In this document: positions 98 through 60,898 of the stretch, in pieces
Layout of the letters: every line of letters begins with the position of its first letter
How positions within the stretch are numbered: the stretch's first letter is position 1
Made by a program: the position numbers and the translations under genes
DNA from: Hormiphora californensis
Lineage: Eukaryota > Animalia > Ctenophora
DNA: 64,000 bases
Reading direction: 5' to 3'
Assembly (NCBI GenBank): GCA_020137815.1
Contig: CM035351.1
Span: forward strand, 9,548,001-9,612,000
Notes under the pieces: model-generated
Database searches by the model: none
What the model was told of the DNA's origin: nothing
What the model saw: the letters and a program-made list of their open reading frames with translations, nothing else

Positions 98-805
98 TCA
101 GCCACCCGTGTACCACAATGCAGGCAGGTCAGTGCGGGACAGTGCTTTACCACGAAACAGCTTGTTATTACTGGGAACTTTGTTTAGACTCCTCTCAAAT
201 GCACTACACCGGTACCTCCTAGCTGGGCCACTATTGCCACCTTTCCGTGTATCAGATGTTTGTCGCTTGCTCTTCTTATTCAACTGTTCCTCAGATTCAA
301 TAATAAACTTCTTGGGCCGGCCTCTCTTCCTTTTAGCTGATACTGACGAATCGGAGGAAGGGGCCGTTTCAAATGTAGCGTGACCATTGGTTGTCCCATT
401 TGGTAATTTCCCAGAAGATGTTGTCCCATTTGGTACTTTCCCAGAAGATGTTGTCCCGTTTGGTACTTTCCCAGAATCTGCGGGTACTGTCCCATTTGGT
501 ACCTTCCCAGAAGACCCATTTTTGCCAGCTGAGGAGGTGCTAGCTGTGCTACCATCCCCCTCATCCTCATTGATAAATAGATCACCCTCCTGAAGGAGGC
601 GATATAACGTCCTCCCGCTCTCTAAACTCTTGATAGATCGCCTCCAGTTTCGATGCCGACCCTTCCCAGCTAACCTCTCAAACTGGGCTAGAGTTACAGT
701 CCCATCTGAACAGGTTACACAGGGCTTCTTGGCGTGGAAGATATCGAGGTCAAGTTGTCCGGGGTGACCGTTGCAGATGATATCAAGAGTCGGAGCATTT
801 TTCAT
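98..805 (-). CDS. SAND-domain nuclear protein (with AT-hook-like motif); probably continues past the window start
   Basis: LDIICNGHPGQL...VTLAQFERLAGKGRHRNWRRSIK...TLYRLL matches the SAND fold (KDWK-type motif as RNWRRSI); KRKRGRPKK is AT-hook-like; ATG at 805 follows ctaac-pyrimidine-CAG; an open frame in bases 1-97 suggests a frameshift rather than a true stop at 98. Confidence 0.7.
   Translation of the reverse strand: MKNAPTLDIICNGHPGQLDLDIFHAKKPCVTCSDGTVTLAQFERLAGKGRHRNWRRSIKSLESGRTLYRLLQEGDLFINEDEGDGSTASTSSAGKNGSSGKVPNGTVPADSGKVPNGTTSSGKVPNGTTSSGKLPNGTTNGHATFETAPSSDSSVSAKRKRGRPKKFIIESEEQLNKKSKRQTSDTRKGGNSGPARRYRCSAFERSLNKVPSNNKLFRGKALSRTDLPALWYTGG
387..515. repeat. Coding 30-bp tandem repeat (SSGKVPNGTT-like x4) inside the SAND gene
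   Basis: Repeated gttgtcccatttggtactttcccagaagat units. Confidence 0.85.
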
Positions 806-1014
806 GCTGGAAAACAAGGTTAGAAATAACAGGGAGTTACACAGTTAGAGAGAATGATATCACGACACGGAGGTTTCTTGAAGAGAAAAAGTAAAGTAAA
901 AAACATATACACGATACGACGATGTTACGATAACTTATTTGTACAAATATGATAATCTAATTTACAAAAAACGGGGTGTGATATTAGCAACCAGCGCTTT
1001 ATGATCCGATCACA

Positions 1015-1588
1015 TCACACAGATACGTCATCTCTAATCTCCTGAGCTGTCTTGTACTCTGGTAAATCTGCACTTGATTTATCTTCCTAAAAACAGAGAA
1101 AGGATGATTAGTATTGTTACCTGGTCAATCGTCTAGATTATGATTTTAACAGAATCTTAGATCGAACTCAATAATGTGGAACACAGAATAAGCTGTGACC
1201 ATAACAACATACCAGCAGGAGATCAAGGTCTTCGACGGCCTTCCTTAGTCGGTTTCGGGCATCAGGTACCATAGCCTTGCTTTCATCAACAACCTCCCCC
1301 TGAAAATAAGATATACTGTTTCTCAATCCTCTCAAAACAACAACAGAAAAACAGGACATTAGGGTAGATCTCTAATATAGAGGAACAACAGGACATTAAC
1401 AGAGAGGAATTATATGATCTCTATATATCTCTCACCATTTTCTTGATATCATATGGATCCTTTCCCTCATCCTTCATTTGCTGAACCTTTAGCTCCCCAT
1501 CCACAACTTCCTTCTGATACATCTGGACCTCCTTGTTCAACCTCTTAACCACACCAGACTTGATTCTCAGCTGCTTTTTGGCGTCCAT
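1015..1588 (-). CDS. TBCA: Tubulin-folding cofactor A, 3 exons (~1588-1436, ~1300-1214, ~1086-1015)
   Basis: MDAKKQLRIKSGVVKRLNKEVQMYQKE...YDIKKM | GEVVDESKAMVPDARNRLRKAVEDL | EDKSSADLPEYKTAQEI* with GT-AG junctions. Confidence 0.92.
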
Positions 1589-1931
1589 AGCTAGATTCCT
1601 ACACAATACATAGGGATGTTTAGTGTGGGGAGGTGGGAGAGAAGGGCAGTGTAGACATGGAAACTAAAACTGAATAAAAAATTTCTGATAGTCAGCTGGT
1701 GAGGGCACGCCATATTTAACTAATCAGATTCACGATTATTATGTCATTGAATGTAAATATAAGTAGACACACGGCCTACTGCTGAAAGAGTAGTATTGCG
1801 GAACGAATTAAGAGGTTAAATAAATAGTTAAAACTAACAGATACATTCCTCAGTTTCACGCACTATCTCACACTCACTCGATCAAGATGAGCATCAGTCT
1901 CTATATCATAAAAATAACCATATTATCAGTT

Positions 1932-3119
1932 CTAGGACGACTCAATAATTTTAGGTTCAATCATCTGTCGAATGTTCAACTCGATCGTGTCGCCCTCCGA
2001 TCCAAGATCTTCAGGGTCTTCGACCATATCAAAGCGTCCATTGGTAGGAGCTATAACGCCCCTAAGAATACGGACAATAACGTTTTGAGAGGAGGGATCC
2101 AGTTCCAGGATTATACCCTCCTTGTATGCTGATATTACAGGACTATAACTTTCATTTAGGTCCAACATTTTGAATGCTAGTTTATCTTGAGGCTGGGGCA
2201 TTCCAACCAAATCTTTCAGCTTCGAATAGTCTATATCTTCATCAATAGACATTTTCTTTTCTTCTTCCTCCTCTTCTTCCTCTTCTTCCTCCTCCTCTCC
2301 CTCTTCCTCCCGAGAACTTTCTTCGGAGCTAGAGGGATCTGGTTTTCTCCTGATCTTTGGCGGAGGTTCCCCCTCTTCAAGTTCACCCTCACCTTCCTCT
2401 TCTTCACTTTCCTCCTCGCTCTCAGACTCCCTAACCTGACTCTTAACTACGGGAGCGGGGGCAGGTTTTTCAGTCTCTTCTTCATCCGATGAATCTGACG
2501 TCATAGAAGAATCACTAGAGTCACTCTGTTTGGTGATGGATAGAACCTTCTCTACCATGACCTTACTCTTTGACATTGAGTTGTTGACCATTTTCTGAAG
2601 CAGAGTCGAGGAGTTTGTCTTGAGGTCCGCCTCAACATAACTCAAGGTGGTTTTGGATGAGCTTGGGAGAGCAGTAACAACGGGAATTGATTCCGCACAC
2701 ACAGTCTCAGGGGCAGGTGGACGGGTATAAACCTTGCTACGATTTCTGTACTTATCCTTGCCGATAGGGGTAACATTCTTGTTAAACTTTTTGTGGACAG
2801 GGTTTTCTATTGTGATAGAGCACTGGGGTCGAGACTCCTGGACAGGAGCAATGTTCGTGACACAAAGGGGTGCAGATTTTATCCAAATATCATCTTCAGC
2901 CGAATCGATGATGCAGGTTGAGGTCCATTTTGGAGCGATGATTCCATTGATATAAACACACACCTGTTCCTCATTGATCTTCATCTTCGAAGCAATATCC
3001 CCTAACATCTTTCCAATGTTTGGAGTTATGATGGGGTCCATAAAGTACCATATCTTGGACTCTCTGTGGTATATTTCACGGTCGAAGTTAAGAACAATTC
3101 GTAATCCTGCTTTGGTCAT
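1932..3119 (-). CDS. COIL: Coilin (Cajal body scaffold), single exon
   Basis: N-terminal LRIVLNF..IWYF domain, acidic/Ser-rich centre, C-terminal Tudor-like DYSKLKDLVGMPQPQDKLAFKMLDLNESYSPVISAYKEG. Confidence 0.88.
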   Translation of the reverse strand: MTKAGLRIVLNFDREIYHRESKIWYFMDPIITPNIGKMLGDIASKMKINEEQVCVYINGIIAPKWTSTCIIDSAEDDIWIKSAPLCVTNIAPVQESRPQCSITIENPVHKKFNKNVTPIGKDKYRNRSKVYTRPPAPETVCAESIPVVTALPSSSKTTLSYVEADLKTNSSTLLQKMVNNSMSKSKVMVEKVLSITKQSDSSDSSMTSDSSDEEETEKPAPAPVVKSQVRESESEEESEEEEGEGELEEGEPPPKIRRKPDPSSSEESSREEEGEEEEEEEEEEEEEKKMSIDEDIDYSKLKDLVGMPQPQDKLAFKMLDLNESYSPVISAYKEGIILELDPSSQNVIVRILRGVIAPTNGRFDMVEDPEDLGSEGDTIELNIRQMIEPKIIESS

Positions 3120-4398
3120 AAGTCATAGAAACTACTAAAACAGAGGGGAGAAAGTAAGAAACCAAGGGGGAATTTCTGTGGCCGGAGTTTCGTTTTATGC
3201 CTTGGAAATCAGTACAGTAAACGGTCTACGGAACGTTGGCATACGTTGCAGGCCCCTTATAATATAACAATCGTTGCGGGGGTGCGCGCATGAGGGGGCT
3301 GCAGCGCATTCCAATACGGAACGCAGCTGTTTTTTTTTCTGCAGCTCGGCCGTAGTAGGGACCCTAATCTGATCCAGGCACGGATTTCACCCCCCTTTTT
3401 TATGATTGGAAATAGTTAATTAATTGTCCCTTAGTCATGTACATTACAAGAAATATACGCGTGCCTGGGTTAATTGGCCAATAAAAGCCAATTAAGTCTT
3501 AATTGCCAGTCAAACTACTTAAATGTCTCTTATTCTTGATTGAAGCATCGGATTTGAGTCTAGTAAAAAGCATAGTGTTCTAAATTACTCTGCAAACAAG
3601 ATACAGTAAAAAATTTGGATAAAATTGGTTCTAAATTAGGTTTTTTGAACATGGGCCAAATACCCGCCAAAACCAATAAATAGGGTACTTTTCCAATGCT
3701 GTCATCTTTTGACTTTCATCTGTACTTTTATACCGCGCGCACCAATATGTACCGTGCGCGGCAATCAGAACACCTTGTTCAAGGACAAAGGAAGGAGGTC
3801 TCATGGAAACAGCTGAAAAATGCGCTGACAAGTGCCATAACCATGTTAATGGATTTCTTCCTCATTTTACGACCATTTCCAAGTTCCAGTATTCCGATAT
3901 TAAACACAAAATGAAACATGTTTGTATACAGAGAGGGAAAGAGTAAGAGTAAGAGGGGAGAGAGTGAGAGAGAGAGAGAGAAAAAGAGGGATAATTACAA
4001 ACATGTTTCAATGATTCAACCACACTGTTCTTTGTAATTGTTTACCAAAAATTTAAACTGACATACATAATAAAATGGTACACAGTTCATTGTTCAAATA
4101 GACGAAAAATATCAGCAATTAATAACATCCACACAGGCATAATTATAAAACGGTCCGTTGTGATTAACTGTGTACCGTATAATCAGCTGATCAAACTGTT
4201 CACCCCACCCATGGTTTTATCTGGAAAAATATTTAATTTCCACGTCACTCTGGCGGTATTATAATTGTTCCTTGCTATTTCGGGGTCAACATTTGGAATG
4301 AGTACGGAAAACAATGAAAGTTCAATTATTTCAAACACTCATTCAAGGGCTTCGCCAACACAGGAATAGTCCCGCTATCACAGGCGACACCCAGAGTC

Positions 4399-4836: not shown

Positions 4837-4839
<3 letters not shown>

Positions 4840-4929
<90 letters not shown>

Positions 4930-10208: not shown

Positions 10209-11668
10209 TGCGAAGCAGGGAGGGTGGTACATGGTGTAAAACCCTACCAAAGGGAGGGGTCCATTATTCATACTTTGTATAAGCAAGGATTTGTTGATTA
10301 TAAGTTTCCAGTGGAAAACCCCAACGGGGCACCTACCTATTCTATAATCTAGTGTGTGATCAGGTTACATAGTACCAATGGTACCGTACCATTCGATCTA
10401 GTCTCTCTGTAGGGCCGTATCTTCACAGTTAGGAATCTTTTCTTAACATTTTTGTAGATTCTCAGTGCTCCCTCGTGTCCGGGTGTCCGCGAGGCCAAAA
10501 AACCGGAGAAAGAAAAGAAAAATGGAAAAAAACAAAAAGAATGGTGCTCCAATGACCAATCCCAATTTACGATTATTATAGAGTACAGAAGGGCAATTCT
10601 TTATCTTGTGTTACCTGTTAGGAGGTGATCATCAGCAGCTACAGCCTGCAGACCTATTTGAATGTCTTTCTTTTATGTAGGGAAATGACGAATCAAAGAA
10701 GCTTTGTAAAAACTGAATCGAAGAAACGATAAATTTGAGAAATCCACGCGCAGTCCAGATGTTTTGTCAGCACTGTATATGCTTTCGGCGTGGGAAAAAT
10801 GCGCGCAGCGTGAGAATTTCCCACGCTCGTGGGAATTACCGTAAGAGCTTCCACTAACGGGGCGACGTCGCTCAGAGTTCGCGTGTTACAGCGTGTTACA
10901 GCGCGGCGCTTACACTTAAAATTGCAATTGAAATATTTTGCAAAATCTGAGTCGTGTTTTTTCTCTTCCCGAAACGGAACCAACCGGTTCCAAGTGAAAC
11001 ATTTGGGTGTTTTGAGTGTCACCAGTGCCCAGTGGTGTTAAAACCGTGAGTGGTGAGTCACCACTGGTGACTCACCAATCACGGTTTTTTAGGGTTAACG
11101 TAGGGTTAGGGCTAACGTAGGGTTGGGCTTTGAACTAGCCAAAACGGATGAGTGGCTTCAGGCTTGGTGGTTAGACGGTCTAATATTGCATGTGACCCTC
11201 AAATTATCTTGAAATCCAAGATTATGTTATCAGTTATGTAGGGTACTTTTTGGCAGTGCACACCTGTTTCAACCTCCAAGCGAGAAAAAACGAGCTATTT
11301 CCTTCGACCTTCCGTTTTATTGATTTTTAAGGCGTACCTAGTCTCATACCACACGTCGGCCCATTTTAGGTTTTTAAACACAAAACTTTCAGACACTAGT
11401 TTTGGTTACTTGCGAAAAGTTACGACTTGCCCCGATCACGGACAGTACCAACCAACCAACCGATCACGGACCACCACAGCTGTCATCTGGTGCTGCAATC
11501 TGTTGTTTTGTTCAAACCCATTACCCATTCGCGAAATGGGGTCTAGCTAGGCAAATCTAAAGCTGATCAATATGATATTATCACACGCTTGGGGTGCTAA
11601 CTTCTAAAAAAGCCGACTCTATTTCTTCTTTTTTTATACCCTCTATACACTCTCCCTTCTGAAATAGA

Positions 11669-13847: not shown

Positions 13848-13909
<62 letters not shown>

Positions 13910-41651: not shown

Positions 41652-41771
41652 AAATGTTAAAATCATTATAAATTTGTAAAAAAGCAACCTGTGATTAAAA
41701 GCTGATTAGTGAAGGGAGGTCGGCTAATATCGGCCTTAAAGTTAGATTAACTGATTAAAAATAGTCCATTT

Positions 41772-45640: not shown

Positions 45641-46126
45641 TCAATACGCATCCTCTGCTCTTCCAAACTTGAATATAATGGTGGCCAGGAAGATACACAG
45701 GTTCTGGATAAAGAACCCAGTACCGGGGTAGGAGGGTTGCTTCTTCTTATAAACATAGTCACCAAACAGTATGAAACTAGCACCAATCAGACTAGCAAAA
45801 ACACAGAGAAACCCAAACACCATCCATATCCGTGTACCTGCAGTTCCTAGTGCACCTGGTACATAGGCATCACCTCTCAGTTGGGAGTTAGATACAGCAT
45901 TAACCATGAAGAGGCCGATAGTACCAAACACACCGCAGGACCAGTATGCTGGATTATAGTTGTGGGAGTCAATAGCACCAACATCAATAGCTATCCACCA
46001 GCCAATAGCAAAGAGACATCCTGCTACTATTGATGATATGACATTCCTGTTTTCTGATAGCCATTCTGTGTCAACACATCTTCCCAGTATTCCCTCGCAG
46101 TTGGTATTGTCTAAACACCCGCTCAT
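45641..46126 (-). CDS. TMEM50: TMEM50 (Vps68-like) membrane protein, single exon
   Basis: MSGCLDN...RNVISSIVAGCLFAIGWWIAID...GLFMVNAVSNSQLRGD...QNLCIFLATIIFKFGRAED. Confidence 0.92.
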   Translation of the reverse strand: MSGCLDNTNCEGILGRCVDTEWLSENRNVISSIVAGCLFAIGWWIAIDVGAIDSHNYNPAYWSCGVFGTIGLFMVNAVSNSQLRGDAYVPGALGTAGTRIWMVFGFLCVFASLIGASFILFGDYVYKKKQPSYPGTGFFIQNLCIFLATIIFKFGRAEDAY

Positions 46127-46344
46127 CGCCTAGATAACGGGGGAGAGTGAGGGGGTATTATAATGAGAGGGGGATAATGGCATGGATAATTAGGGAGTTA
46201 CATGTTTAGGGGGATTGGAGCGATAGTTAGGGGAGGGGGGCAAGGTTGAATAAAACGATAAAACTTTTCAAATTGGTAAAAGTTAACAACTGGTGTGTTT
46301 TACAAAGAAAAATATCATTACAAAAACAGAAAAATAAATATGCT

Positions 46345-47716: not shown

Positions 47717-47877
47717 ACCTGATATGAGAGAGAGGGAGAGTTAGGTGATAATTGGGGAGGGGCTTGGGAAGCTAAGGGAAGGGCTGCAGTAAAAGACAGT
47801 TGTTTTTTCTGAAAGGAAAATAAAACGTTAAGAAAGTTCAATAATTTAGATAAAAAGTCCCTTGTCAGTCCCTGTCT

Positions 47878-50800
47878 CTATTCTGAATAAGCGGATATCA
47901 CTTTCTTGGCCAGGCTTGATAGGTCGTTATATTTGGCGGCTAAGGTCAGATGACAGTACCTCCTCCAGAGCAGTGTTGGTGGACCCAGGGAGGGAGGGAG
48001 GGGTAACTTCCACCTTGGTAGATACCACGTGGAGCCTCTGACTCAGCTTGATGCACTCTCGGACATGGTGGGGACTGGGGTTATCAGCAGCAAGAAGGGT
48101 TGAGAGAAGGGAACCAACTGTAGTGAGAATCTTCTCTGAGTTAGATAGCACCTTAGGCGTCTGCGAAAGATAGGATCCTCTGTAGTAGTGATATAGCCTG
48201 CATCTTGGCAAAGAGTGTGATGTCAGAAGAGAGGTGTGACGTCACGTGTGACGTCACATCACCCCTCACATCTGGGAACCTCTCGATGACCTGGAAAATA
48301 ACGTTCTTGTCCGATTTAGTGTTCTTGTTACTCAACAGATCCTGCAGAATCACCTGAAACACACCGAACACATCATCTGATTTTGTAGGTATCTTCCCTG
48401 TGTTGGATTTCCTTTTCTTCTTCTTAGGCTCTGGGTTGCTGAGATGTTTCTTACAGAGAAGGAAGAGAGTCTGAGTTGCCAGCTGCTGGATCTTTTTACT
48501 AGGACACTTCAACACAACCTTCTGCAGTTCCGGGATGACAGACTTCTTGGCCTCTGAGAAATCAACTGTCAGCTTCTCACTCTTGATAGCAAAGAGACCT
48601 TTGAAAATAGCCAGTATCCGGTCGTGAATAGGGCCCTCTGAGAGGGAGGGTTTCCCGGCGAGCCGCAATAGTGTAGGAACTACTGTCATGGTAGATGGTG
48701 TAAAGCCAACATCCTCTAATAAGATCTCAACAAAGTCTAGAATCTTCACTTGGAACTGGACCATCTTCACCTTCTTTACAGCCTTCTCTTTCTTAAACGC
48801 CTTCTCGTCCTTTCTAAACTGGATAAGAGTAGAGAGAGCTGGACCAAGTCGTTCATCCTCTTTCTTCAATTCCTCTTCATCTGCATCCCCTATTTCAATA
48901 TCTTCAGATTCACCATCATCAATCGGATCGACAACCATCTCCTCTTCATCATCCAGATCTTCTTCACTGTCCTCTTCTTCATCTTCTTCATCTTCATCAT
49001 CTTCACTATCTTCACTATCTTCATCATCCTCGTCTTCAGAAGCGATATCGTTTTCACTCTCTTCCCCCTCCTCTTCCTCTTCATCATCTTCCTCCTCTTC
49101 CTCTTCTTCCTCAGTTCCAGCACTGCTGAGAGCATCCATTATCAGTTGAATAGTTTCAGCGTCCAGCCCCTTACAGATAACTCTAAAGAGGGAGCTTGCA
49201 ATCTTTCTGAGTAGGGCTGATTCATAGGATAGAATACTGATGAGGAGGTCTACAAAGACACCCCTCCAGTTCTCATCACTCTTGGTTTTCTGTTTCTCGT
49301 AACACTGATGTACATCATTGAGGATAGCATTAGCGTGACTCTGCTCTTCAAATAGTAACATGCCTGTGTGCAGGAAGAGCAGTTCAAATGCCCAGTCCTC
49401 CTCAGTCCTCTGCTCCAGTGCCTTTCCCTCCACCTCGTCTATCACAGACCAGAGAACTCTCCATTCATTCTCCTGAGTGATATCCACCAGCAGAGAGAGG
49501 CTGTCTGAAGTGACGAGGGAGATGGAACTACTGAGAAGATGGTAGACCCAATACCTCCCATCCTCAGCCAATCCAACACGAGGACTAGAAGGGACATTTG
49601 ACAGAATCTTCAGACAAGTGTTGAACTTTGAGCGACACAGTTCTAAAGATTCCTTGGAAAGGGCAGGCTCTGGCACACTGACAAGAGGGAAGTCTGGCAG
49701 CGTCGATTTCACCTCGAAGAAGGACAGGACAAAGAGGAACTTGGTGACCTCGAACACGACCTTAGCTTGTGCTTGTCGAAGTACCTGTACCATCCATGTC
49801 AAACAGTCGCTTCGCAACTCTGCTGCTACTTTGTCTTCCTCCCCGGGCTGGCAGAGAATCTCCTGAAGTGGAGCACAGAACTTCTCACACTCCTCCGAGG
49901 GAACTGATGAAAATGCAGCAGTGAGAATCTGGTTGAAACAGGAGGCACGTCGTGGTTTCAGAGCCAGTATACCTTTCACCAGTGATAATTTGTTTTCTGT
50001 TGAGGTAAAACTGCAAACTCGCATTTTGATTTCGCTGGTGAGGAACCTGACACTCTCTGGTGACTGAGTGTGGGATTTCCCTAAAACTTCTGCCATGTGT
50101 TTTACCACGAATCCCTCAACCTTTTCTTCCCCTGTAGTCTTCACCAGATGAGACACGGTGAACATTACAGTGTTCTTGTTGTCTCCAGAGGGGACTACGT
50201 TAAAGAACACTTTAGCAGCTTTTTTCAAACTAAAATGTTTAGACTTCTGTAACGCACCCAGAATTGTATCGAGCTGGGGTCGAATTCTTTCTTCGCATAC
50301 CAACTTCTGCAGAACTCCATTGATTTTCTCGTAGTTTTGAGGGTGATGAAGGTGGGAGAAGTTCCAGTGCTTTTTAACCAACTTGCTGACTAGAGCTGTA
50401 TCCCTTAAATCGAAATAGGAGATGAGAGCAAGACGTTCTGTAGTACATCCAGGCCAGCCAAGTTTTAACTCCTCACTAAACAAGGGGAGAACTTTACTAA
50501 GATCTTCCACTGCATCCAGTACTTCAATAAGGACTTTGTACACAGTGTCTTTAATGGTGAGTTTTTGTTTCAGCAGGATTGATAACATCTCTGATATGAC
50601 TTGAGATTGCAGTTCGGAGCTAACTAGCCGGCCAGATTTTAGTAGCGCAGCTGTACAGAAGACATAGCCCGCATAAAGATCTCTCACTTCTTTATGTGAA
50701 ACATGTCCGCTGGGCAGGCAGTTCTCTCTGCAGTACTGCATAACATCTTCTGTTTTTAATGATTCGTGTTCACGGAGAAGGGATGTGAGGGCAACAGCAA

Positions 50801-50972
50801 AACCGCTTCTTGCTTGCTTTCTGTTGGAGGGAAGGCCTTTAACAAGCCGTTTCCAGGTGTAATCGAGTTGTTTGTCTTCTAGAGATCTGCCCATCAAGGT
50901 CTCGACACCAGCAACACAGCTATCTCGTCCCTCTGCGAGGTCAAAGAATACCTGCATCAAATCTCCTGACAT
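47878..50972 (-). CDS. MYBBP1A: Myb-binding protein 1A / Pol5-like nucleolar protein, apparently intronless; 3' end frameshifted
   Basis: FFDLAE...YTWKRLVKGLPSNRKQARSGFAVALTSLL; W..VFVDLLISILS; long acidic tract; FQVKILDFVEI; a frame change near 48160 (and ~47940) extends the reading to a TAG at ~47878. Confidence 0.85.
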
Positions 50973-51912
50973 TTTCCTAGGGGATATTAATGTAAGTGGA
51001 AGAAAAGAATTGATTTTAGAATAATACTACAAAAACACAGTATGCCTAGGGCAAGTTGAACAAAGACTAAACACAACACTCGAAAGTGGAAACCTCGACT
51101 GCTGAATGCTGATGCGAATGATAATAACGTAAAAAAGTTCTAAGGACGCCTGTCGCCTACGTCAGGTTGCGTGATGTAAGAGGCAGTTTTGCTGACCCTT
51201 GTATGCACCATATGACATGAATTGATCAAGTTTAGAGTTGCACTCGTGATGCGAGCTGTTACTGGTCAGGTCACGACTCAGGTGGTGCAAACTAAAACTT
51301 TTTCAGGCGTCGTATCTCCATTTATTGAAGAGATATATTGTTCTTGGATGCGTTAGAAAGCTCTTATTGAGTACGTTCTAACGCAGACGAGACCAAATGT
51401 CATCATCGCCCAGTGATAGGTCTGAAATTCGCAAATAGGTAACCAGGGACCAAAAAATCGCACTTCAAAAAACACTTCCGAGAAATTTTTACAGATCGAG
51501 AACCGCGACGGAAAACGTTAAAATCTGGGTGCCTTTCATTGCTAACAATTCGTAGTTTTAGCGCGCGCGCGACGGGTTAGGGCTATCCGTAAGGGTCTGG
51601 TTAGGGTTTGATTTAGGGTTATCGGTTAGGGCTATCGATTCTCTAACAGATACCGTTTAGTTTACTCAAATTGGCCATGTGGTTGCGTGGCTATAGCCGT
51701 TTGAAAAAAGTCGGTCTAAGTGTACTCTTTTGGTAGCGCGCACCTGTAAACAGGCTGCAAGACACCCAGATTATAATCGCGCCCAACCGCGACCGGGTGC
51801 GCGTCAGTTCAATTTGTTAGAGTTTGCGCTGCCAAAACGTTGTAAATGTAATTGTAAAATTTATTATTTGTAGGTCATGTTAGCTGTTTAATACGTTTTC
51901 AAGTTACCCAAA
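50973..51912. promoter_or_regulatory. Probable bidirectional promoter region (MYBBP1A / RBBP5) with CpG/GCGC motifs and TTAGGG-like repeats
   Basis: Head-to-head genes 940 bp apart; gcgcgcgcgcg at ~51561; gggttaggg-type motifs at 51574-51632. Confidence 0.55.
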
Positions 51913-53469
51913 ATGAATTTGGAACTCCTTGAATCGTTCGGAACGACCTACCCCGACGATGCTGACGGTTTTCTTGAGAGTGGGAGCATGACACTGACAT
52001 GTGCCTTCAATCGTCATGGTTCTCTCCTTGCAGCCGGTTCAAATGATGGTTGTATTGTTATTTTCGACATAATTACACGTGGTATAGCCCGGAATTTTCA
52101 AGCCCATGTTCACCCAGTGTGTTCACTGAGTTGGAGTAGAAATGGGTTCAAGCTCCTTAGTGGGAGTATGGACTGGACAATTAGTGTATGGGAGGTATTG
52201 AAAGGGGAATGCCTCTACAGATACCGCTTTCCCTCGCCCATTTTGAGAGTACAATTCCACCCAATCCTACCCGACGTGTTCCTCGTCTGTCCAATGAAAC
52301 TCCGGCCCGTTCTCCTAAAGATTGGAGGGGAGCAGAAACACATAACTTTTGATGAAGAGGGTGGTGAACAGAACATTTTTGCATCTTTTGATCGTCTGGG
52401 GAAGCGCATATTCACTGGCAACAGTAGAGGGAAGGTCCTTGTTTTTGAAGCAGATACTCTAAACCTCCTTACTTCATTTCAAGTAACCACTGGGTCCAGT
52501 ACAACAACTGGTATTAAAAGTATAGAATTCGCCCGGAAAGGCAGCAATTTCTTGGTTAATTCCTCCGATAGAGTGATAAGAGTGTATGATGGTGATCTGG
52601 TGAAGCCGACCGATGGAAAACCACAACAAGTGGAACCTGTTCAGAAACTACAAGATCTAGTAAACAGGACGCAGTGGAAGAAGTGTTGTTTTAGCGGCGA
52701 TGCAGAGTTTATCTGTGCAGGATCCTCCCGGCAACACGACCTTTATATTTGGGACATGACACACGGTAATCTGGTAAAGATCCTTCATGGTCAGAAGGGA
52801 GAACATCTTCTGGATGCTGTGTGGCACCCCAATCGCCCTCTCATTGCTTCAGTTGCTAATGGCATTATATCTGTGTGGGCCCAGACCCACGCGGAGAACT
52901 GGTCGGCTTACGCGCCTAATTTCAAAGAACTAGACGAGAACGAGGAATATGAGGAGAGGGAGAGTGAGTTTGATGTTGAGGACGAGGACAAGAGTGTTGA
53001 GGATGCTGGAGAGGAGATGGAGGATATAGCAGAGGTGGATGTTGTGACATGTGAACCAATCAGGGCCTACCTAGACAGCGATATAGAGGAGGAGGAAGAT
53101 GTGCTAACATTCATACCAGTCACTCCTGATGTGAAGGATCCTGAGGATGGGTACTGGGCCATGACTGACGAGGAGTTGGCTAACTTAGAGAAGATGAAGA
53201 GAGACGAGGAGAGGAGGGAGAAGACTATGAAAGAGAAGATAAAGATAGTTGATGTGCCATATGAAGGACACGAGATACCTGATGTGCCCCCTGAACCCAC
53301 CACTAAGAAACAGGATATAAAGGCGCCCAAGGCACCCAAGACGCTCCAACCAAAACCTCCTAAGGAACAATTACCTCCACCCCCCATTGAGAAAGAGTTG
53401 AATATACCAGATATTGATAAAGAATCGAACATTTTTACAGAGGACAAAATGCACTGTGACGACTCCTGA
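51913..53469 (+). CDS. RBBP5: Retinoblastoma-binding protein 5 (COMPASS/MLL WD40 subunit), single exon
   Basis: MNLELLESFGTTYP; WD40 repeats; QKLQDLVNRTQWKKCCFSGD; ENWSAYAPNFKELDENEEYEERESEFD. Confidence 0.96.
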   Translation: MNLELLESFGTTYPDDADGFLESGSMTLTCAFNRHGSLLAAGSNDGCIVIFDIITRGIARNFQAHVHPVCSLSWSRNGFKLLSGSMDWTISVWEVLKGECLYRYRFPSPILRVQFHPILPDVFLVCPMKLRPVLLKIGGEQKHITFDEEGGEQNIFASFDRLGKRIFTGNSRGKVLVFEADTLNLLTSFQVTTGSSTTTGIKSIEFARKGSNFLVNSSDRVIRVYDGDLVKPTDGKPQQVEPVQKLQDLVNRTQWKKCCFSGDAEFICAGSSRQHDLYIWDMTHGNLVKILHGQKGEHLLDAVWHPNRPLIASVANGIISVWAQTHAENWSAYAPNFKELDENEEYEERESEFDVEDEDKSVEDAGEEMEDIAEVDVVTCEPIRAYLDSDIEEEEDVLTFIPVTPDVKDPEDGYWAMTDEELANLEKMKRDEERREKTMKEKIKIVDVPYEGHEIPDVPPEPTTKKQDIKAPKAPKTLQPKPPKEQLPPPPIEKELNIPDIDKESNIFTEDKMHCDDS

Positions 53470-53601
53470 TATAGTGTCATTATTTATTGATTATTTTATT
53501 GTATTTTACATATATTTTCCATGCCTTCATCCCCGCGTGTGTTCATCTTTTATGTGTGCGTATAAACATCTGATCCAGCTCTCTCTGTAGAACCATGTGA
53601 T

Positions 53602-56600
53602 ATGACAAAACGGAAGCTGGCAGGAGAGGAGACACCTATCAGTGAGACACCTTCTGTCTCACCCGCACCACTTTTTAGGTAAAATATCATTATCACCCGC
53701 CACACACTCGATACCCTTCACGTTTTAACAATTCCTATTTTCACAGTCCGGGACTAACTGAGCGCCAGCAGATCGCTCTGGTTATGAAGTTATCTGGGGA
53801 GTCCCAGGGGGCAGCAGCTGTAGTAGGAGAGAGTGTAGTGACCACCCCAGCAGTCACACCCCCTCCTCCCACCACACCCCGACCTAACAAAGTGAGTTTA
53901 CAAGTGAAATGTATCAGGGACAGTTTCTAATACTTCCCCCTTAGATCAACAAGTTGAACAAACACGGGGAGTCGCCTCTGCAGAAGGCTGCAATAAAGGG
54001 AGACTTGAAGCAAGTGAAGTTTCTAATTAAGCAAGGTGCAGAGGTGAACACAAGAGATCATGCAGGGTGGTCCCCTCTCCATGAGGCGGCCTGTAAGGGA
54101 CATATAGATGTGTGTAGGACACTACTAAAGAGTGGGGCACAAGTTAACGTAGCGGGATACTGTAATGAGACCCCACTACACGATGCTGCTATTAACGGCC
54201 ATCCAAAGGTAACAAGTAGTCTTCTTCAACTAACTACCTACCCAAGAAACTACCTGCCGATTGGTGTTTTATGAAGGAGCACACTATATCACACCCACTA
54301 TCAGGTTGTTAGTTTATTGCTACAGAGTGGTGCAGACCCATTATTACGGAACCAGAGTGGGAAACTAGCAGTAGAGGTTACTGAACACCCCCTTATCAAG
54401 GCAATGTTGACTGCTGCAATCAATAGAGATGCTGGTAACGGTGACCCACTACAGATCTACAATGAAGAGGTAACTATCAGGGCTGTGCAGTGTGCAATGT
54501 GCATACCTCGTATTATAGTAATTAGTAACCCCCTCCCTCCCCCATAGGAGAATATGGATATATCCCTGCCTGGTCCCACAGACGATGCCTCCCCTTTGGT
54601 ACCAACCCCTTCCCAACATAGGACTATTAGTGTCTCTAAACAACTGTTTAAATCTCCTAAAGCAGACCCAGGTTAGTAAATACCACTTCAGATCCTTCAC
54701 CCCCTCTACTGACCAGTAGTTAACAGTTGGCCACCCTCCAGGCTCATCAGGGAAAGAGGAGGAGGAGGAGGAGGAAGGTGGGGAGGACACAATCACACCA
54801 GGAATCCCTGAACAACCCTCCTTACCAACTACAGAGTTGAAATCACCAGAGCCCCCGATAAAACAGGAGCAAGTGGAAGTGAAACCTGAACCTGAAGAGA
54901 TAGAACCTGTAGAGCCTGAGGAGGAGGAGAGGGCAGGGTACTACAAGTTTAGCCACCTCCTGCCTGATACAGTGTGTTCAACATCTCTCACTGAGAATGG
55001 CCCCTTTACCCTTTATATAGGGCGGAACAAGAGGCCTGTAAAGAGGGCCCCCATGTCCGAATCTCGATCTCCCCCGACTACCCGTAGTAGGACGGGAGGT
55101 AAACCAGTGGATAACAGTGCTTCAGAGGAATTGAAATGTCTTAACGAGGGGTTAGTGTATAAATGTGTGTGTTTCTAGTGTGTGTACACTGTACACTGTT
55201 GAGTGTGTATACACAGTTACACATTCTCTCTCTCCCTGTACACTTAACACTGTATACACAGTTACACATTTTCTCTCCCTGTACACTGTATACACAGTTA
55301 CACATTTTCTCTCTCCATGTACACTGTATACACAGTTACACATTCTCTCCCTCCCTGTACACTGTATACACAGTTACACATTCTCTCCCTGTACACTGTA
55401 TACACAGTTACACATTCTCTCCCTGTACACTGTATACACAGTTACACATTCTCTCTCTCCCTGTACACTGTATACACAGTTACACATTCTCTCTCTCCCT
55501 GTACACTGTATACACAGTTACACATTCTCTCCCTGTACACTGTATACACAGTTACACATTCTCTCTCTCCCTGTACACTGTACCTTATTACCTCTATATA
55601 ACGGAACCTTCTATTAGCGTACCTTTAATTAACGTACCTTTAATTAACGAAAATCAGTTTGGGCGAGCAAATTCTAACAAAAGGCACAAAATTAACGATA
55701 CCTAAAATTAACGAAATTTTTACCGATTTCGTTAATTAGAGGTTCCGTTAAATAGAGGTAATAAGGTATACACAGTTACACATTCTCTCCCTGTACACTG
55801 TATACACAGTTACACATTCTCTCTCTCTCCAGGCGGTATCTGCTAAAGTCTGCCGTTGTTACGCCACGGAAGAAGTGGTTACACCAACACGCCTACAAGA
55901 AGCGGCACCTGGGTGACATCTATGAGCTACAGAGGAGGGGAACCCCATCAGAACCAGATCTCCCCTCATGGATAACTGAATCTATGTTATACACCAAGAA
56001 ATATCTCCTACAAAACTCAGTATGTAGCGCGCGGTGCGTTCATAATGTGAGAAGTTGTCCTCGCCCCTATGCGGTCAGTGCGCGGCGTACCCTATCGTGG
56101 GAATTTCCTTTCATCTCACTCTCCAGTTCCACTGTCTGACCAGTACCACCCCCTCTCTTGTCAGGTTGTAGGGAAGCTAGACGAGGAGACGGATAACAAG
56201 TACCTTGACCACATACCCAATGTGATGCGTGTTCAATACGATAAGATGCAGAATGAGAATCAGGTTCTGCGATATAAACACACAGCGGATAAAGAACGGC
56301 TCCTTCTACAACACGAACAGTCAATGTTACGGGTCCGCCGCCAATCCCTCATGCGTCACCCCACCCCCAGTGCCTGTTCTGTACTAGTACAGCACCACAG
56401 TATAGAGTTCGCTAAGCGACTACAGACCGTCAACTATGACATAAACAATGAACAATTGCTCCTAATTCGAGGGGAGAAAGTGATGAATAGTTTCGATGAA
56501 TTAGCAGGTAGTTTATACCAGCGACATAAACAGGAAGCCGATACAACCTTCTCCTCGCATCGCTTCAAGTGGATGAATACCATCCATCAGTACGGGCTAT

Positions 56601-56626
56601 ACGATATGCCAATATTAGGTGAGTCA

Positions 56627-56709
<83 letters not shown>

Positions 56710-56848
56710 CACACAGCAAACACCTGTTGTAATCTCGTCAGGTAACCTGAGTCTGTGGGTGGAAAGGATTGAGGTGTCAAAGTTAAAACCCGCTGTGGAA
56801 TACTATGATGAGAATCAGGAGAGGGACGGGGATGAGACTTCTAGATAG
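53602..56848 (+). CDS. ANKRD11/ANKRD12-like ankyrin-repeat chromatin cofactor (compact form), multi-exon
   Basis: LTERQQIALVM motif; ankyrin repeats GESPLQKAA / GWSPLHEAA / ETPLHDAA; C-terminal DKERLLLQHEQSMLRV...PSACSVL and QRHKQEA motifs. Confidence 0.8.
55190..55830. repeat. ~34-38-bp intronic minisatellite (ctgtacactgtatacacagttacacattctctcc)
   Basis: About 12 copies, interrupted by a MITE. Confidence 0.92.
55583..55766. mobile_element. 184-bp MITE with TA target-site duplication (Tc1/mariner/pogo-type) inserted in the minisatellite
   Basis: TIRs CCTTATTACCTCTATATAACGGAACC / GGTTCCGTTAAATAGAGGTAATAAGG; flanking TA; neighbouring repeat units show the empty site. Confidence 0.88.
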
Positions 56849-56895
56849 TTGGAGGACTGAGTTACGTAGTGATCAGTTAATTTGTAGTGAGAATT

Positions 56896-56952
<57 letters not shown>

Positions 56953-57139
56953 CAGAATATAATTGTTTATGTGTGAGTGTATTATAGCTTGTGCCATGTT
57001 TTGAAGTCTTTTAGTAAACTGCTACCGAAATATGCGGCTAATATGCGTGTCTTCACTTATATGTCCTCTCTACCACTTTTAGATCCTTTTGTCTAAGCCG
57101 TCTCACAGGCTTTCTACACATGTTACATTCTCCCTAGCT

Positions 57140-60100
57140 ATGGAATTAGTTGATATTGTGACGTGTATTGCAGACCCGCTGATGCTTGAAGAGGGTGTGT
57201 TCAAGATCTGGCTAAATGGGTACACAGGTAACATATCTCTCTTTATTACCCCGGGAAGGGGGGTTACAGGTCCCCTTACCTTCCTCTAACCCAAACTATC
57301 CCGTGCAGCCGAACAAGCTGTTGAGATCAGGTTCCAGCGTGATATGAGCTGTGCTGGCGTGTCACGTGATATAGTGACACTAGACACCAAGGACCAGTAC
57401 CAGACCTTTGAGATGTTGGAGAACTTGTTTAGGAAACCTCCCCTGTTGGCTGTTTCACCCATAGTCAACATGCCCCGTATAACTGATACCTTGCTGCAAC
57501 AGTGAGTGTACGTTACCACACACGTGATCAAGGTATCAGACACATGACCCCCCTCTCTGTTATACAGGTACTATACACTAGATGAAGAAGTAGCTAGGGA
57601 GTTAGTAGGGAGAGGGAGGAAGATGACGGCAAGATTTAGAAAGGACTTGGATGGCATTTCTGAGAAAACTGGAATACCCCTAAGAAGCTGTCTGAGGCAG
57701 TATGATAATATCAGACGTATCTATAAGGTACAGTTATACAGATCTCAAACTGGGGGAACATGCTGTGAAATAGTTCAACACTCCATTGTTGTAGGATACC
57801 TAGAGAAAGAGTGCTACTGTTTTGCTGCTGTGTAGTTCAGCCCCCCTCCCCCATTTTAATGCAGGATGTGGACGAGAAAGAGGGGAAGTTAATATCAAAC
57901 ATTCAGCGGCACTATGGCCTAACTGGGAGGCTGTGTCAGCAATACGCCGCCATTATATATATCTTGGATAATCGACTAGAGGTGTCTACTAGAAAGTGAG
58001 TGAAAAGTAGAAATCATAAAATTGGAATAACATATATCTCATATCATATATGTTTTACACACACACATTTTACACACACTTGAACAGGGGTGGTTCACAA
58101 TCCCTCTTTGAAACTCTAGAAACGTCACTACCACCAGGGTTTACTAGATGTAGGTTTCTCGGCCAGTTTCATGTTAACAGTTTTGTGTTCTATTTCCAGC
58201 TCCAGCTTGACCTTGTAATCAGCGTTGCCAGGTAGAACCTCACTCCCGTCCTGCCTGGGGGCCTTGCTTTCATCCGCTAATTCACTAGTATCTACCCTGG
58301 GTAGTTGGGACCAGACAATTCTATTGCCACAACCAACCCTTTTTTCCTTTTCCGTTTTCTTCATATTCACTGTCGTATGGTCGATACGCTCTATCGTTAG
58401 ACCAGATGCCAGGTTCCATTTGAATCGGAATCTCCCAACTCTAGTATAATCTTGATGTCTCACGTCAGCAGAAAGAGATGGATAGCCCCCATCTTTGTTG
58501 CCACAAACTGTGGCTCCATCACATCCTTCCACCTTTATCCACACTTCTCCACATTGGTTACACTTTCTTGCATCAACTTCACTCTTCTGGGCGAGCTTGT
58601 CGGTCATCTTCCTAATCTCAAACATGATAACTCGCATTCTATTGGCCAGCATTGCACAATGACCTGCCTCTGTGTTCTTATTCGGACCTATCAAGGTATA
58701 ACCTAATTCATCGCAAAAGTCAGACTGTATTCGAGCGAGTTCTCCAGCCATCCAAGTTTGGAAAGAGAACAGCAAGTCAGTAAGATCCTTTCCTTGGTAG
58801 TTTGGTAGGATGCTGTCAAAACGTTCCTTCATCTCTAGGAACGTGTCCACTCTGCGGTTGATGGCTTTTATTGCCCGTCTGTCTCGGGGAGAAATACGGA
58901 ATATCTTCAGGAATTTGTCTCCGTCTATCTGGAAGTCTATTGGTTTAGTGGATTCACTAACATTTCTCAAGTTGTCCAGTAACTTCTGCTTGTCTTCCTG
59001 CTTGCTGGTAACCACTACATCGTCAATCATACAGTTGTCACGGATTATATTCTTGAGTTGCTCGCAGGTATAGTCAACAGTGTCCATATGGGTCACTAGA
59101 ACACCCACTAACTCCTCTGGCAACTCATATAGCTTCTCACTGTACTGGTTTATCTTATCCACTACAGTGTCCATCCTAGTTTCCGCCTTAACAATTATAA
59201 ACATCTTGGAAACAGGAGCGAAGTTGATTGCCCCAGCAACCCACTGGTTCTGATCAAATGGATCCTTCAGTGCATTGCAACCAGGTGTGTCCGCTATCAT
59301 CATTGAACCGTCAAAACTCCAGAACACCTCGCTCGTAGTCGTACAACTAAACATGCTGTCTCCGCTTCTTCCTGTCTGTTCTGCTAGCTTCTCAACAATT
59401 GTAGACTTTCCTGTCCCCACATCGCCAATCATCACAATAAAGGGTATCTTCTTCTCCATCATACCCGTAAACCGTAGAAACTTCGTCCATAGACTAATAC
59501 TTAAACCTAGCACCATGTTTGCTAAAATGTTTGTTATTTATGATAACATTGTGTTTTGACATACCGCCTAGAACCCATACTCAAAACACCTAGGCTTAGA
59601 CCGAACAGGGTCATATAAGGTTGACAATACACGGCCTATCATCAGAACGAGAAGCAAGAATACTTATATTAGTTATGGGTGGGAAAATACACCTTATACA
59701 GAAGTTGCACAGATTATTATACGCATCGAAGCAAAATTCGACAAAACACTGTCACATTATGTTTTTAGAAGAAAGATAGCGTTGTATTTGAGTTTCTTCT
59801 CTTCTTTATCTCTCTCTCTCTCTCTAGCTCTCTCCCTCTCTCTCCCTCCTTATCTCTATCTTCTATTACTCTTCTTCAATACTACAGAAGAGCTGTAACT
59901 CGGCTCTAGTAAAAGCTGCTGTGGCTGAATCCTGCAACTAGTGCATATTTTTTAACTGCGAAACTTACTCAGCCAATGGGCAAGGTCTGAAGTGCTGGAT
60001 TTCAAGCACTACCCTTCCCTTACCCCACACCCAGGTTACCTAAGTTGAGTTACGATATGTTGGTACGGTGTGTGCTAGCGATCATGCAGGAATGGTGTTC

Positions 60101-60898
60101 CCCATTGGGGGATTCTACCACTGACATGGATATAGACAGGTAGTAACACCCATGTATGTAGTAACACCCTCTCTCATCATGTTGGTAGTAATTAGTAACA
60201 CACAGGTTACAGGTAGTAACACACATCTCATCAGTCATCACCCACCCTTTTGAGGTGAAATCACTAACACATCCACATCCCTGTGTAGACACTTTCTAAA
60301 GGAGTTACACAGTTTGAGGGACCGGGTACCAGATACACTCCTGAGCAGTTTCGTAGCATGCAGTGCCGAGGCAATTAAAAACAACCCTGAGAACCCTAAA
60401 AATACAGGTTTGTCCCATCACACAATATATTGAGGCCCTACATTCCTTATTACCCCTACCTCCTCTCAGTTCTGGAGAGTAAGAGGTTGGTACACCGTCT
60501 CCTATCCCTGGGGTACTCCCTGGTTCACACTAAGAACCTGACAGACCTGTTCCTGGACCTGGAGGAGGAGATATTGGAACCCTGGTTCTCTGCAGGCCTC
60601 ACCATCACCAACCTAGATGCAATGATAACCGTTATTATGGGCAACTTTGTTAACGTCCTTACCAACAACGGGTAAGTAGTGGGGGGGGGGGGGTTGTAAC
60701 AGGGTTCAGCAGTAACCAGCACTGGGTATCAGGTGGTGTGTGTGTGTGGTTGTATATCAATATAGTTGACTACTAGGGTGGCACTCATCACAACATAACA
60801 CCTTATCTCCTTTTCACAGGTTCTCCTCAGCAGTACCGGTGTTTAGTAGGTACCTAAAAGCCACGACATGCTGTTTACTCTACATGGGTAACAGATGA
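57140..60898 (+). CDS. FIBP: FGF1 intracellular binding protein, ~8 exons
   Basis: LEEGVFKIWLNGYT; DTKDQYQTFEMLE; YYTLDEEVARELVG...KDLDGISEKTGIPLRSCLRQYDNIRRIYK; KNLTDLFLDLEEEILEPW; last exon ...YMGNR*. Confidence 0.88.
58128..59516 (-). CDS. Intronless P-loop GTPase (AIG1/TRAFAC-like G domain) with helical region and Cys-rich RING2/Rcat-like C-terminus, nested in a FIBP intron
   Basis: G1 IVMIGDVGTGKST, G2 SCT, G3 IADTPG, G4-like LVTHMD; C-terminal RKCNQCGEVWIKVEGCDGATVCG...GCG; 462-aa uninterrupted ORF. Confidence 0.8.
   Translation of the reverse strand: MVLGLSISLWTKFLRFTGMMEKKIPFIVMIGDVGTGKSTIVEKLAEQTGRSGDSMFSCTTTSEVFWSFDGSMMIADTPGCNALKDPFDQNQWVAGAINFAPVSKMFIIVKAETRMDTVVDKINQYSEKLYELPEELVGVLVTHMDTVDYTCEQLKNIIRDNCMIDDVVVTSKQEDKQKLLDNLRNVSESTKPIDFQIDGDKFLKIFRISPRDRRAIKAINRRVDTFLEMKERFDSILPNYQGKDLTDLLFSFQTWMAGELARIQSDFCDELGYTLIGPNKNTEAGHCAMLANRMRVIMFEIRKMTDKLAQKSEVDARKCNQCGEVWIKVEGCDGATVCGNKDGGYPSLSADVRHQDYTRVGRFRFKWNLASGLTIERIDHTTVNMKKTEKEKRVGCGNRIVWSQLPRVDTSELADESKAPRQDGSEVLPGNADYKVKLELEIEHKTVNMKLAEKPTSSKPWW

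What the first reader, a model, noticed from the sequence alone, without database searches (positions are those of the whole stretch)
98..60898. Window-wide signature of operon-like gene clusters resolved by spliced-leader trans-splicing
Seen: almost every gene has a pyrimidine tract plus AG, often with a CTAAC branch point, just before its ATG. Examples are SAND ttctaaccttgttttccAG-c-ATG, TBCA tctAG-ct-ATG, ALDH tAG-a-ATG, UQCC1 tctAG-cc-ATG, PFDN6 ttctAG-ccagt-ATG, SMYDs tttAG-gct-ATG and cccAG-gt-ATG, TMEM50 tctAG-gcg-ATG, ZGPAT atcAG-gt-ATG, MYBBP1A cctAG-gaaa-ATG and FIBP cctAG-ct-ATG. Co-directional neighbours are mostly only ~130-430 bp apart, little room for a 3' UTR, promoter, 5' exon and intron. 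CpG/GCGC-rich patches appear at cluster heads (~3280, ~28960, ~51560) but not in these gaps. Established: nematode and tunicate operons have this layout, and SL trans-splicing occurs in several animal lineages including ctenophores. Inference: these runs are polycistronic units in a lineage where operons are poorly described.
Basis: partly seen in the sequence, partly recalled or inferred. Interest (0 to 1): 0.9.

Follow-up and report, generated by a model that had tools for sequence, protein, structure and literature searches.

The report
Comb jelly leader-spliced gene clusters
In a comb jelly genome, housekeeping genes sit head to tail only a few hundred bases apart and RNA shows one shared leader from elsewhere spliced on just before the start codon of three of them, so these runs are likely operons, an arrangement known from worms and sea squirts that our literature searches did not find reported for comb jellies.

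Summary
The window is Pleurobrachia-type ctenophore DNA (99% to P. bachei proteins). Acceptors before start codons are real: 15 of 21 genes versus 8.7% of 1959 other ATGs. RNA contigs from two studies carry one non-templated leader, identical to the published Hormiphora spliced leader, at TBCA, PFDN6 and SMYD-a (3 of 14 starts laid). Trans-splicing is therefore shown here, but was already known for ctenophores. Operons are inferred: 11 of 14 same-strand gaps are 132-445 nt; upstream RNA cover ends 104-120 nt before the next acceptor at 3 of 4 junctions; CpG marks cluster heads, not gaps; RBBP5-ANKRD-FIBP appear adjacent in Mnemiopsis too; and one outside contig runs leader-RPS27a-spacer-RPL13-A run. 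No contig bridges two window genes and promoters were not mapped. The scan noted similar layouts in other animals, none a ctenophore. Verdict: likely SL-resolved operons (0.72) in a phylum where ten searches found none reported.

The parts
98..3136 (-). Cluster A: coilin (ATG 3119, stop 1932) > TBCA (ATG 1588, stop 1028) > SAND-domain gene (ATG 805, stop 98); gaps 343 and 222 nt
   Evidence: Pfam; coordinates and gaps; RNA
1599..1600 (-). TBCA trans-splice acceptor, leader joined here (shown)
   Evidence: X3 record 11, 439-nt contig with both introns removed and a 23-nt leader loose behind 1600
1601..1720 (-). 120 nt without RNA cover between coilin 3' cover and the TBCA acceptor; U-rich tract then C-rich tract (candidate intercistronic region)
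   Evidence: contig ends are only a weak hint of RNA ends
809..922 (-). 114 nt without RNA cover between the TBCA mRNA contig and the SAND acceptor (AG 808-807, predicted); U-rich tract, CTAAC, pyrimidine tract
3170..3500 (.). CpG/GCGC-rich head region of cluster A (candidate promoter, inferred)
   Evidence: no RNA cover beyond 3267 in 4 of 4 runs
11300..11667 (+). ALDH head region and predicted acceptor (AG 11666-11667); ALDH is a single gene, not part of a run
22357..22743 (.). CpG-rich region between divergent SURP-domain (SFSWAP-like) and mitochondrial-carrier genes, a predicted acceptor at each end
29126..38771 (+). Cluster D: ERCC6-like helicase (ATG 29143) > SMG5/6/7-like (34175) > UQCC1 (36726) > PFDN6 (38346); gaps 275, 423, 312 nt
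36618..36721 (+). 104 nt between the end of an SMG-like CDS-plus-3'UTR contig and the predicted UQCC1 acceptor (AG 36722-36723)
   Evidence: X2 record 9, 35988-36617
38339..38340 (+). PFDN6 trans-splice acceptor, leader joined here (shown in two studies)
   Evidence: loose ends before 38339 in X3 (19 nt) and X4 (23 nt)
41772..50978 (-). Cluster E: MYBBP1A (ATG 50972) > ZGPAT (47716) > TMEM50 (46126) > SMYD-b (45195) > SMYD-a (43145); gaps 210, 218, 445 and 787 nt (the 210 assumes a frameshift near the MYBBP1A 3' end)
43149..43150 (-). SMYD-a trans-splice acceptor, leader joined here (shown)
   Evidence: X4 loose end behind 43150, 21 nt, reverse complement of the same leader
50979..51871 (.). 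CpG/GCGC-rich region between the divergent heads of clusters E and F (candidate bidirectional promoter, inferred; partly dispersed repeat)
   Evidence: differing loose ends at 51784 in X2 and X4
51872..61329 (+). Cluster F: RBBP5 (ATG 51913) > ankyrin-repeat gene (53602) > FIBP (57140) > a further gene (ATG about 61249; TTC7-like label recalled, no Pfam hit); gaps 132, 291, 350 nt
   Evidence: order apparently kept in Mnemiopsis

Best explanation
A shared spliced leader is joined to an unpaired splice acceptor a few bases before the start codon of TBCA, PFDN6 and SMYD-a, and the tight same-strand runs of genes are likely transcribed from one CpG-rich promoter at the head of each run as a polycistronic precursor that 3'-end cleavage and leader trans-splicing would cut into single capped mRNAs. 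Shown: acceptor-like sites before most starts; the leader at three of them; its absence from the window; its identity with the published Hormiphora leader; short gaps; CpG enrichment at heads. Inferred: that the other predicted acceptors are also trans-spliced; that head regions are the promoters (two of them bidirectional); that each upstream mRNA is cleaved about 105-120 nt before the next acceptor, behind a variant poly(A) signal and ahead of a U-rich tract, the remaining capless RNA being rescued by the leader's cap; that one leader type serves first and downstream genes alike, as in tunicates, Hydra and chaetognaths. Genes behind long gaps (SMYD-a 787 nt, calumenin-like 1726, ERCC6-like 3045) may have their own promoters.
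For: Leader at 3 of 14 gene starts inside the laid regions, 4 loose-end rows, runs of two studies; not in window at up to 3 mismatches; equals the last 25 nt of the leader in PMC8527503 (passages). The same leader heads 113 of 121 public contigs, with 112 different sequences behind it and the first ATG a median 11 nt away. Two tandem copies 778 nt apart with a GT donor, three stems and a U-run look like the SL RNA gene (L087/L088; fold z -3.8). 11 of 14 gaps 132-445 nt, 14 of 19 neighbours on the same strand (p 0.03), good donors in only 2 of 11 short gaps. Upstream RNA cover reaches 114, 120 and 104 nt from the next acceptor at 3 of 4 junctions, 245 at the fourth. CpG 15.4 per 300 nt at heads, 5.3 in short gaps. 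Mnemiopsis RBBP5 and ANKRD have consecutive locus tags on one contig and a gene model 99.7% identical to Mnemiopsis ANKRD fuses it to FIBP, although Hormiphora-Mnemiopsis colinear blocks reach only four genes. Contig L050 runs leader > ubiquitin-RPS27a > 155-nt unspliced spacer (AATAAA at the stop, U-rich tract, acceptor 119 nt after the stop scoring 3.5 against a threshold of 3.3) > RPL13 > 3' run of ten A.
Against: No contig among the pieces shown bridges two window genes (one search hid 22 of 46 loose-end rows and 65 of its piece rows). 11 of 14 laid starts show no leader (mostly no cover shown) and 7 of 21 starts were never laid; no head gene was seen with a leader. Contigs cannot show where an RNA ends, so the 104-120 nt figures are hints. 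L050 is 1 of 80 long loci, from another locus and an unnamed species, and these assemblies do contain chimeras (L048). None of the 11 short gaps has AATAAA, so 3'-end formation there rests on variant signals. The TBCA-SAND gap is CpG-rich (o/e 1.45) and could hold a promoter; CpG patches also lie in repeats, and low CpG may only reflect methylation history. Tight spacing alone slows rearrangement, so kept gene order does not prove co-transcription; strand and spacing in Mnemiopsis were not seen for RBBP5-ANKRD.
Confidence: 0.72

Rival explanations
1. Every gene has its own promoter, lying in the gap or inside the upstream gene's last exon, and makes a short outron that the leader replaces; the clustering is mere genome compaction.
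For: Leader addition also serves single genes in tunicates, Hydra and chaetognaths (PMC7986045 section 3); ALDH, a lone gene, has the same acceptor; no bridging contig in the window; one short gap is CpG-rich; SMYD-a, one of three leader-proven genes, follows a 787-nt gap with AATAAA.
Against: Only 104-120 nt lie between upstream RNA cover and the acceptor at three junctions, much of it branch point and pyrimidine tract; 10 of 11 downstream genes have at most 8 CpG in -350..-50 while all 8 head genes have 10 or more; L050 holds two whole genes between a leader and an A run.
Confidence: 0.22
2. The acceptors close ordinary cis-spliced 5'-UTR introns whose first exon lies in the gap or further upstream.
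For: Cis introns of 50-110 nt would fit the gaps; acceptor and branch motifs are the same as in cis introns; 18 of 21 starts have no direct RNA evidence.
Against: At all three starts where a contig crossed the acceptor the upstream letters are the shared leader, which is not in the window; the four joints listed are all internal introns; strong donors in only 2 of 11 short gaps.
Confidence: 0.04
3. The pattern is chance or reader selection: YAG near an ATG is common in pyrimidine-rich DNA.
For: 19.7% of 1959 other ATGs have YAG within 6 nt; only 3 of the 10 unquoted genes do.
Against: Matrix scores separate starts from background at p about 1e-9 (rank test) and RNA confirms three sites.
Confidence: 0.02

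Closest known systems
Spliced-leader trans-splicing of ctenophores (Hormiphora californensis, PMC8527503, passages read; Derelle et al. 2010 seen only as cited there, text not held)
   Same: Identical leader 3' end; joined at AG close to the start codon; widespread (56% of Iso-Seq reads in Hormiphora; 113 of 121 contigs here have it at their 5' end).
   Different: That paper uses neither 'operon' nor 'polycistron' (0 occurrences); it does not map acceptors, intergenic gaps or promoters. Its supplements could not be seen.
Operons resolved by a non-specialised leader: Oikopleura dioica, Ciona intestinalis, Schistosoma (PMC7986045, passages and section 3), Hydra RFC140-flp (PMC3273482, passages), chaetognath Paraspadella gotoi (PMC12460157, passages)
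   Same: Tight same-strand runs of unrelated housekeeping genes, acceptor just before the downstream ATG, same leader on many mRNAs, T-rich tract in the spacer (Hydra).
   Different: Spacers here look like 100-120 nt after the upstream 3' end, longer than Ciona (median 1 nt) and Oikopleura (about 30 nt); stop-to-ATG gaps often exceed the 250-nt rule used for P. gotoi (which counts between gene models); downstream acceptors are unusually C-rich (median above cis introns, p 4e-4). No reporter test exists, unlike Hydra.
C. elegans SL2-type operons (PMC7986045, passages)
   Same: Intercistronic distance near 100 nt with a U-rich element; housekeeping content.
   Different: No evidence for a dedicated downstream leader: the same 19-23 nt were seen on all three genes; first genes were not seen with a leader, so specialisation is neither shown nor excluded.

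Membership tests
SL trans-splicing | One non-templated leader joined at an unpaired AG on unrelated mRNAs | tested here: met
   TBCA, PFDN6, SMYD-a; absent from window; 113 of 121 public contigs
SL trans-splicing | Leader supplied by a separate SL RNA gene with GT donor, stem-loops and Sm-type site | tested here: inconclusive
   L087/L088 tandem copies fit, but they come from another sample of unnamed species, the U-run is not a textbook Sm site (pattern search empty) and Rfam has no matching family
SL trans-splicing | Hypermethylated cap on the leader | not testable with these tools
   needs cap immunoprecipitation
SL-resolved eukaryotic operon | Closely spaced same-strand genes | tested here: met
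   11 of 14 gaps 132-445 nt
SL-resolved eukaryotic operon | Downstream genes receive the leader | tested here: met
   TBCA (343-nt gap) and PFDN6 (312-nt gap): 2 of the 8 short-gap downstream starts inside the laid regions
SL-resolved eukaryotic operon | Polycistronic precursor RNA | tested here: inconclusive
   none bridging window genes; one two-gene contig L050 elsewhere, 1 of 80 long loci
SL-resolved eukaryotic operon | Single promoter at the head, none in the gaps | not testable with these tools
   only a CpG proxy, which favours it with one exception
Nematode SL2-type operon | Dedicated leader for downstream genes | tested here: inconclusive
   same leader on all three genes seen; no head gene seen with a leader
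Nematode SL2-type operon | About 100 nt from poly(A) site to acceptor with a U-rich element | tested here: inconclusive
   cover ends 104, 114, 120 nt before the acceptor, 245 at a fourth; U-rich tract clear in two; contigs do not prove RNA ends
Ciona / SL1-type operon without intercistronic DNA | Poly(A) site coincides with the acceptor | tested here: not met
   no upstream contig reaches the acceptor at 4 of 4 junctions with cover; absence of cover is weak, but the long C-rich tracts fit a true spacer
Cis-spliced 5'-UTR intron | Upstream exon encoded in cis with a paired donor | tested here: not met
   3 of 3 junctions seen carry the trans leader

The most novel reading that the evidence does not exclude
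Ctenophores run a large share of their housekeeping genes as leader-resolved operons with a spacer of about 110 nt and CpG-rich, often bidirectional, head promoters, and some of these operons (RBBP5-ANKRD-FIBP) predate the split of cydippid and lobate comb jellies and resist the gene-order shuffling typical of the phylum; operons would then be a basic feature of the lineage proposed as sister to all other animals.
Probability: 0.5. Interest if true: 0.75.

Novelty: new member of a known kind. Interest (0 to 1): 0.58.

Why it matters
[quoted passage not shown] Most subscription papers, including Derelle et al. 2010, are not held, so this is not proof of absence from print. If true it adds a phylum near the root of animals to the list in which trans-splicing has led to operons, bears on whether that link is a repeated consequence of genome compaction, changes how ctenophore promoters, chromatin marks and single-cell co-expression are read, explains fused or falsely extended gene models (P0163 fuses ANKRD and FIBP; the P. 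bachei RBBP5 model P0023 carries 101 residues that its orthologues lack), and offers a short spacer for two-gene reporters. It is directly testable with existing long-read and chromatin data. It is not a new mechanism.

Tried and rejected
No whole genome is held for the window, so no genome-wide gap statistics or search for the window's own SL RNA genes. Derelle 2010 was not held; Hormiphora supplements could not be read. Rfam found nothing in the window and nothing credible in six leader loci. None of the 121 leader-bearing contigs is a window gene; only transposon remnants at 4411-4701 and 9777-9956 matched. Of 80 long leader loci 8 had two sense ORFs of 70 aa or more: four are frameshifted single genes (L008, L031, L041, L076), two have a doubtful 3' ORF (L002, L030), one looks chimeric (L048; its second and third ORFs recalled as bacterial-type ribosomal proteins) and one is the two-gene L050. 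No leader was seen for SAND (one 60-nt piece only) or coilin (contig stops at 3122); lack of cover is not counted as evidence. A k-mer screen for a head-specific motif gave only weak candidates. Poly(A) hexamers do not separate terminal from internal genes cleanly: AATAAA/ATTAAA in 5 of 8 terminal regions of 450 nt and in 1 of 11 short gaps. Bacterial promoter scans, structure prediction and complex prediction were not relevant and were not run. Earlier-finding look-ups by place returned nothing.
Full report
Organism and gene map. No genome is held for the window. PFDN6 and RBBP5 match Pleurobrachia bachei records at 99% and, for RBBP5, a cluster holding Bolinopsis microptera and Mnemiopsis leidyi at about 80%, so this is a pleurobrachiid ctenophore. 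I mapped 21 protein genes by hand from the sequence; Pfam supports the domain of 19, UQCC1 is supported through a homologue and the last gene (TTC7-like) is a recalled label with an uncertain ATG. The genes form four runs: coilin>TBCA>SAND (-), ERCC6>SMG5/6/7>UQCC1>PFDN6 (+), MYBBP1A>ZGPAT>TMEM50>SMYD-b>SMYD-a (-) and RBBP5>ANKRD>FIBP>last gene (+), plus ALDH, SFSWAP, UCP, calumenin and a gene nested in a FIBP intron. Several reading frames carry single-base shifts; RNA lacks one base at 34428 and at 35894, so these are probably assembly indels.

The observation. All 11 quoted motifs are in place. Fifty-two cis introns were mapped (50-2039 nt, median 110) and 51 used to train acceptor and donor matrices. 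Eleven of 14 same-strand gaps are 132-445 nt; the rest are 787, 1726 and 3045. CTAAC is no commoner than in cis introns (5 of 21 against 11 of 51). Head genes carry more CpG upstream than downstream genes (10-23 against 3-11 in 300 nt, p 2e-4, with shared DNA in two divergent pairs), but the TBCA-SAND gap is an exception and 23 of 56 other non-coding tiles are as CpG-rich.

RNA evidence for trans-splicing. Marine RNA runs hold part of the window; four of the eight listed were laid, as contigs mostly 95-99% like the window. On 34001-54000 (11 starts) three of the 24 loose ends shown (22 more hidden) are one A/T-rich leader, ending exactly at the AG of PFDN6 in X3 and X4 (two studies) and at the AG of SMYD-a on the other strand in X4. 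The leader is not in the window and equals the last 25 nt of the leader printed for Hormiphora californensis, found there on 56% of full-length reads (PMC8527503, passages). L087 and L088 are tandem copies with leader, GT donor and three stems (z -3.8), a candidate SL RNA gene from an unnamed species. Trans-splicing at these acceptors is shown for three genes and likely for most others. It is known for the phylum.

Are the runs operons? For: (a) RNA from the upstream gene reaches 114 nt (TBCA to SAND), 120 nt (coilin to TBCA) and 104 nt (SMG to UQCC1) from the next acceptor, 245 nt at a fourth junction where the contig ends in adapter. In the first two a variant hexamer lies shortly before the end of cover and a U-rich tract after it, as expected of a poly(A) site; this is inference, since contigs do not show RNA ends. 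(b) What remains is largely branch point and an unusually C-rich pyrimidine tract (downstream above head and cis acceptors, p 0.002 and 4e-4). (c) CpG sits at heads, and heads of ALDH and ERCC6 share an exact 15-mer (0 of 100 shuffles); ctenophore promoters are reported to carry a CpG-containing GC-rich motif (PMC12221973, passages), which I did not match to these patches. (d) Mnemiopsis RBBP5 and ANKRD are consecutive locus tags on one contig, the Bolinopsis pair share a contig, and a model 99.7% identical to Mnemiopsis ANKRD continues into FIBP, whereas Hormiphora and Mnemiopsis share blocks of at most four genes. (e) Contig L050 reads leader, ubiquitin-RPS27a, a 155-nt unspliced spacer with AATAAA, U-rich tract and an acceptor 119 nt after the stop, RPL13, and a terminal run of A; both ORFs have GC3 within the range of 58 leader-headed ORFs. 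That is the shape of a dicistronic precursor with the same spacer length as in the window.

Against: no contig shown bridges two window genes; 11 of 14 laid starts gave no leader and no head gene was seen with one; L050 is one of 80 long loci, from another locus and an unnamed species, and could be an assembly of overlapping or chimeric reads (L048 is a chimera); none of the 11 short gaps has AATAAA; CpG is only a proxy for promoters and repeats contribute to at least two head regions; close spacing itself preserves order. Internal promoters with short outrons remain possible for some or all genes, most plausibly SAND and SMYD-a.

Comparison and novelty. It works like the single-leader operons of tunicates, Hydra and chaetognaths, with a spacer length nearer C. 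elegans (PMC7986045 passages and section 3, PMC3273482 passages, PMC12460157 passages). Membership in 'SL trans-splicing' is met; membership in 'operon' is met for spacing and downstream leader, inconclusive for the precursor and untestable here for the promoter. PMC7986045 says operons have not been reported in ctenophores (2021); ten searches found no later report, but the library lacks most subscription papers, Derelle et al. 2010 could not be read and the Hormiphora supplements, which may bear on leader loci, could not be seen. PMC4664967, PMC13498776, PMC10282587 and PMC10081198 were checked by passages and add nothing on ctenophore operons. Earlier scan notes describe like layouts in other animals and viruses, none a ctenophore; they are unchecked and did not change my reading.

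Verdict. Observation partly confirmed; trans-splicing shown; operons likely (0.72). A new member of a known kind, in a phylum of unusual evolutionary interest, and directly testable with existing data: interest 0.58.

Noticed in passing
L050:1-1339: One contig holds leader, complete ubiquitin-RPS27a (32-493), a 155-nt unspliced spacer, complete RPL13 (649-1299) and a terminal A run: candidate ribosomal-protein operon precursor.
   Followed up: partly
L087:281-408 and L088: Two tandem copies, 778 nt apart on one contig, of leader plus GT donor, three stems and a U-run: candidate ctenophore SL RNA gene with no Rfam family.
   Followed up: partly
L028, L039, L042, L064, L071, L081, L015: The leader heads long ORFs that look like retroelement ORF1 (weak zinc-knuckle hits only; L015 and L071 match the remnant at window 4411-4701), several with flanking DNA upstream of the leader. 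Trans-spliced retroelement RNAs copied back into the genome might account for part of the hundreds of leader loci reported in ctenophore genomes (inference).
   Followed up: partly
window 11541-11555 and 28982-28996: Exact 15-nt motif shared by the ALDH and ERCC6 head regions, 112-131 nt before the acceptor; a 7-nt core occurs three times in the window, each in a head region (third at the MYBBP1A head). Candidate promoter element or shared repeat remnant.
   Followed up: partly
window 11090-11130 and 51570-51640: Degenerate TTAGGG-like repeats in two head regions (seen by eye).
   Followed up: no
window 58128-59516 (-): Intronless GTPase-like gene (MMR_HSR1 hit) nested antisense in the fourth FIBP intron, with its own weak acceptor 5 nt before the ATG; nested genes are reported as common in Hormiphora.
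   Followed up: partly
window-wide: About half of the genes (SAND, coilin, SMG-like, PFDN6, both SMYDs, TMEM50, ZGPAT, MYBBP1A, RBBP5, nested gene) show no coding introns in my hand mapping, and ERCC6 none in its 3' half; most lie in the tight runs.
   Followed up: no
window 34428, 35894, about 47530, about 48160-48240, 32160-33720: Single-base frameshifts in SMG-like, ZGPAT, MYBBP1A and ERCC6-like genes; two are absent from RNA contigs, so probably assembly errors.
   Followed up: partly
window 15252-16430, 41436-41651, 7339-7410 with 10788-10856: Long inverted repeats (401-nt arms at 98% in an ALDH intron; 88-nt perfect arms; ends of a 3.5-kb element), probably DNA transposons or fold-back elements; 61900-64000 looks like a LINE reverse-transcriptase remnant by eye.
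   Followed up: no
P0023, P0163: Public gene models distorted at such sites: P. bachei RBBP5 with 101 extra N-terminal residues absent from orthologues; a three-gene fusion ANKRD-FIBP-transferrin.
   Followed up: partly
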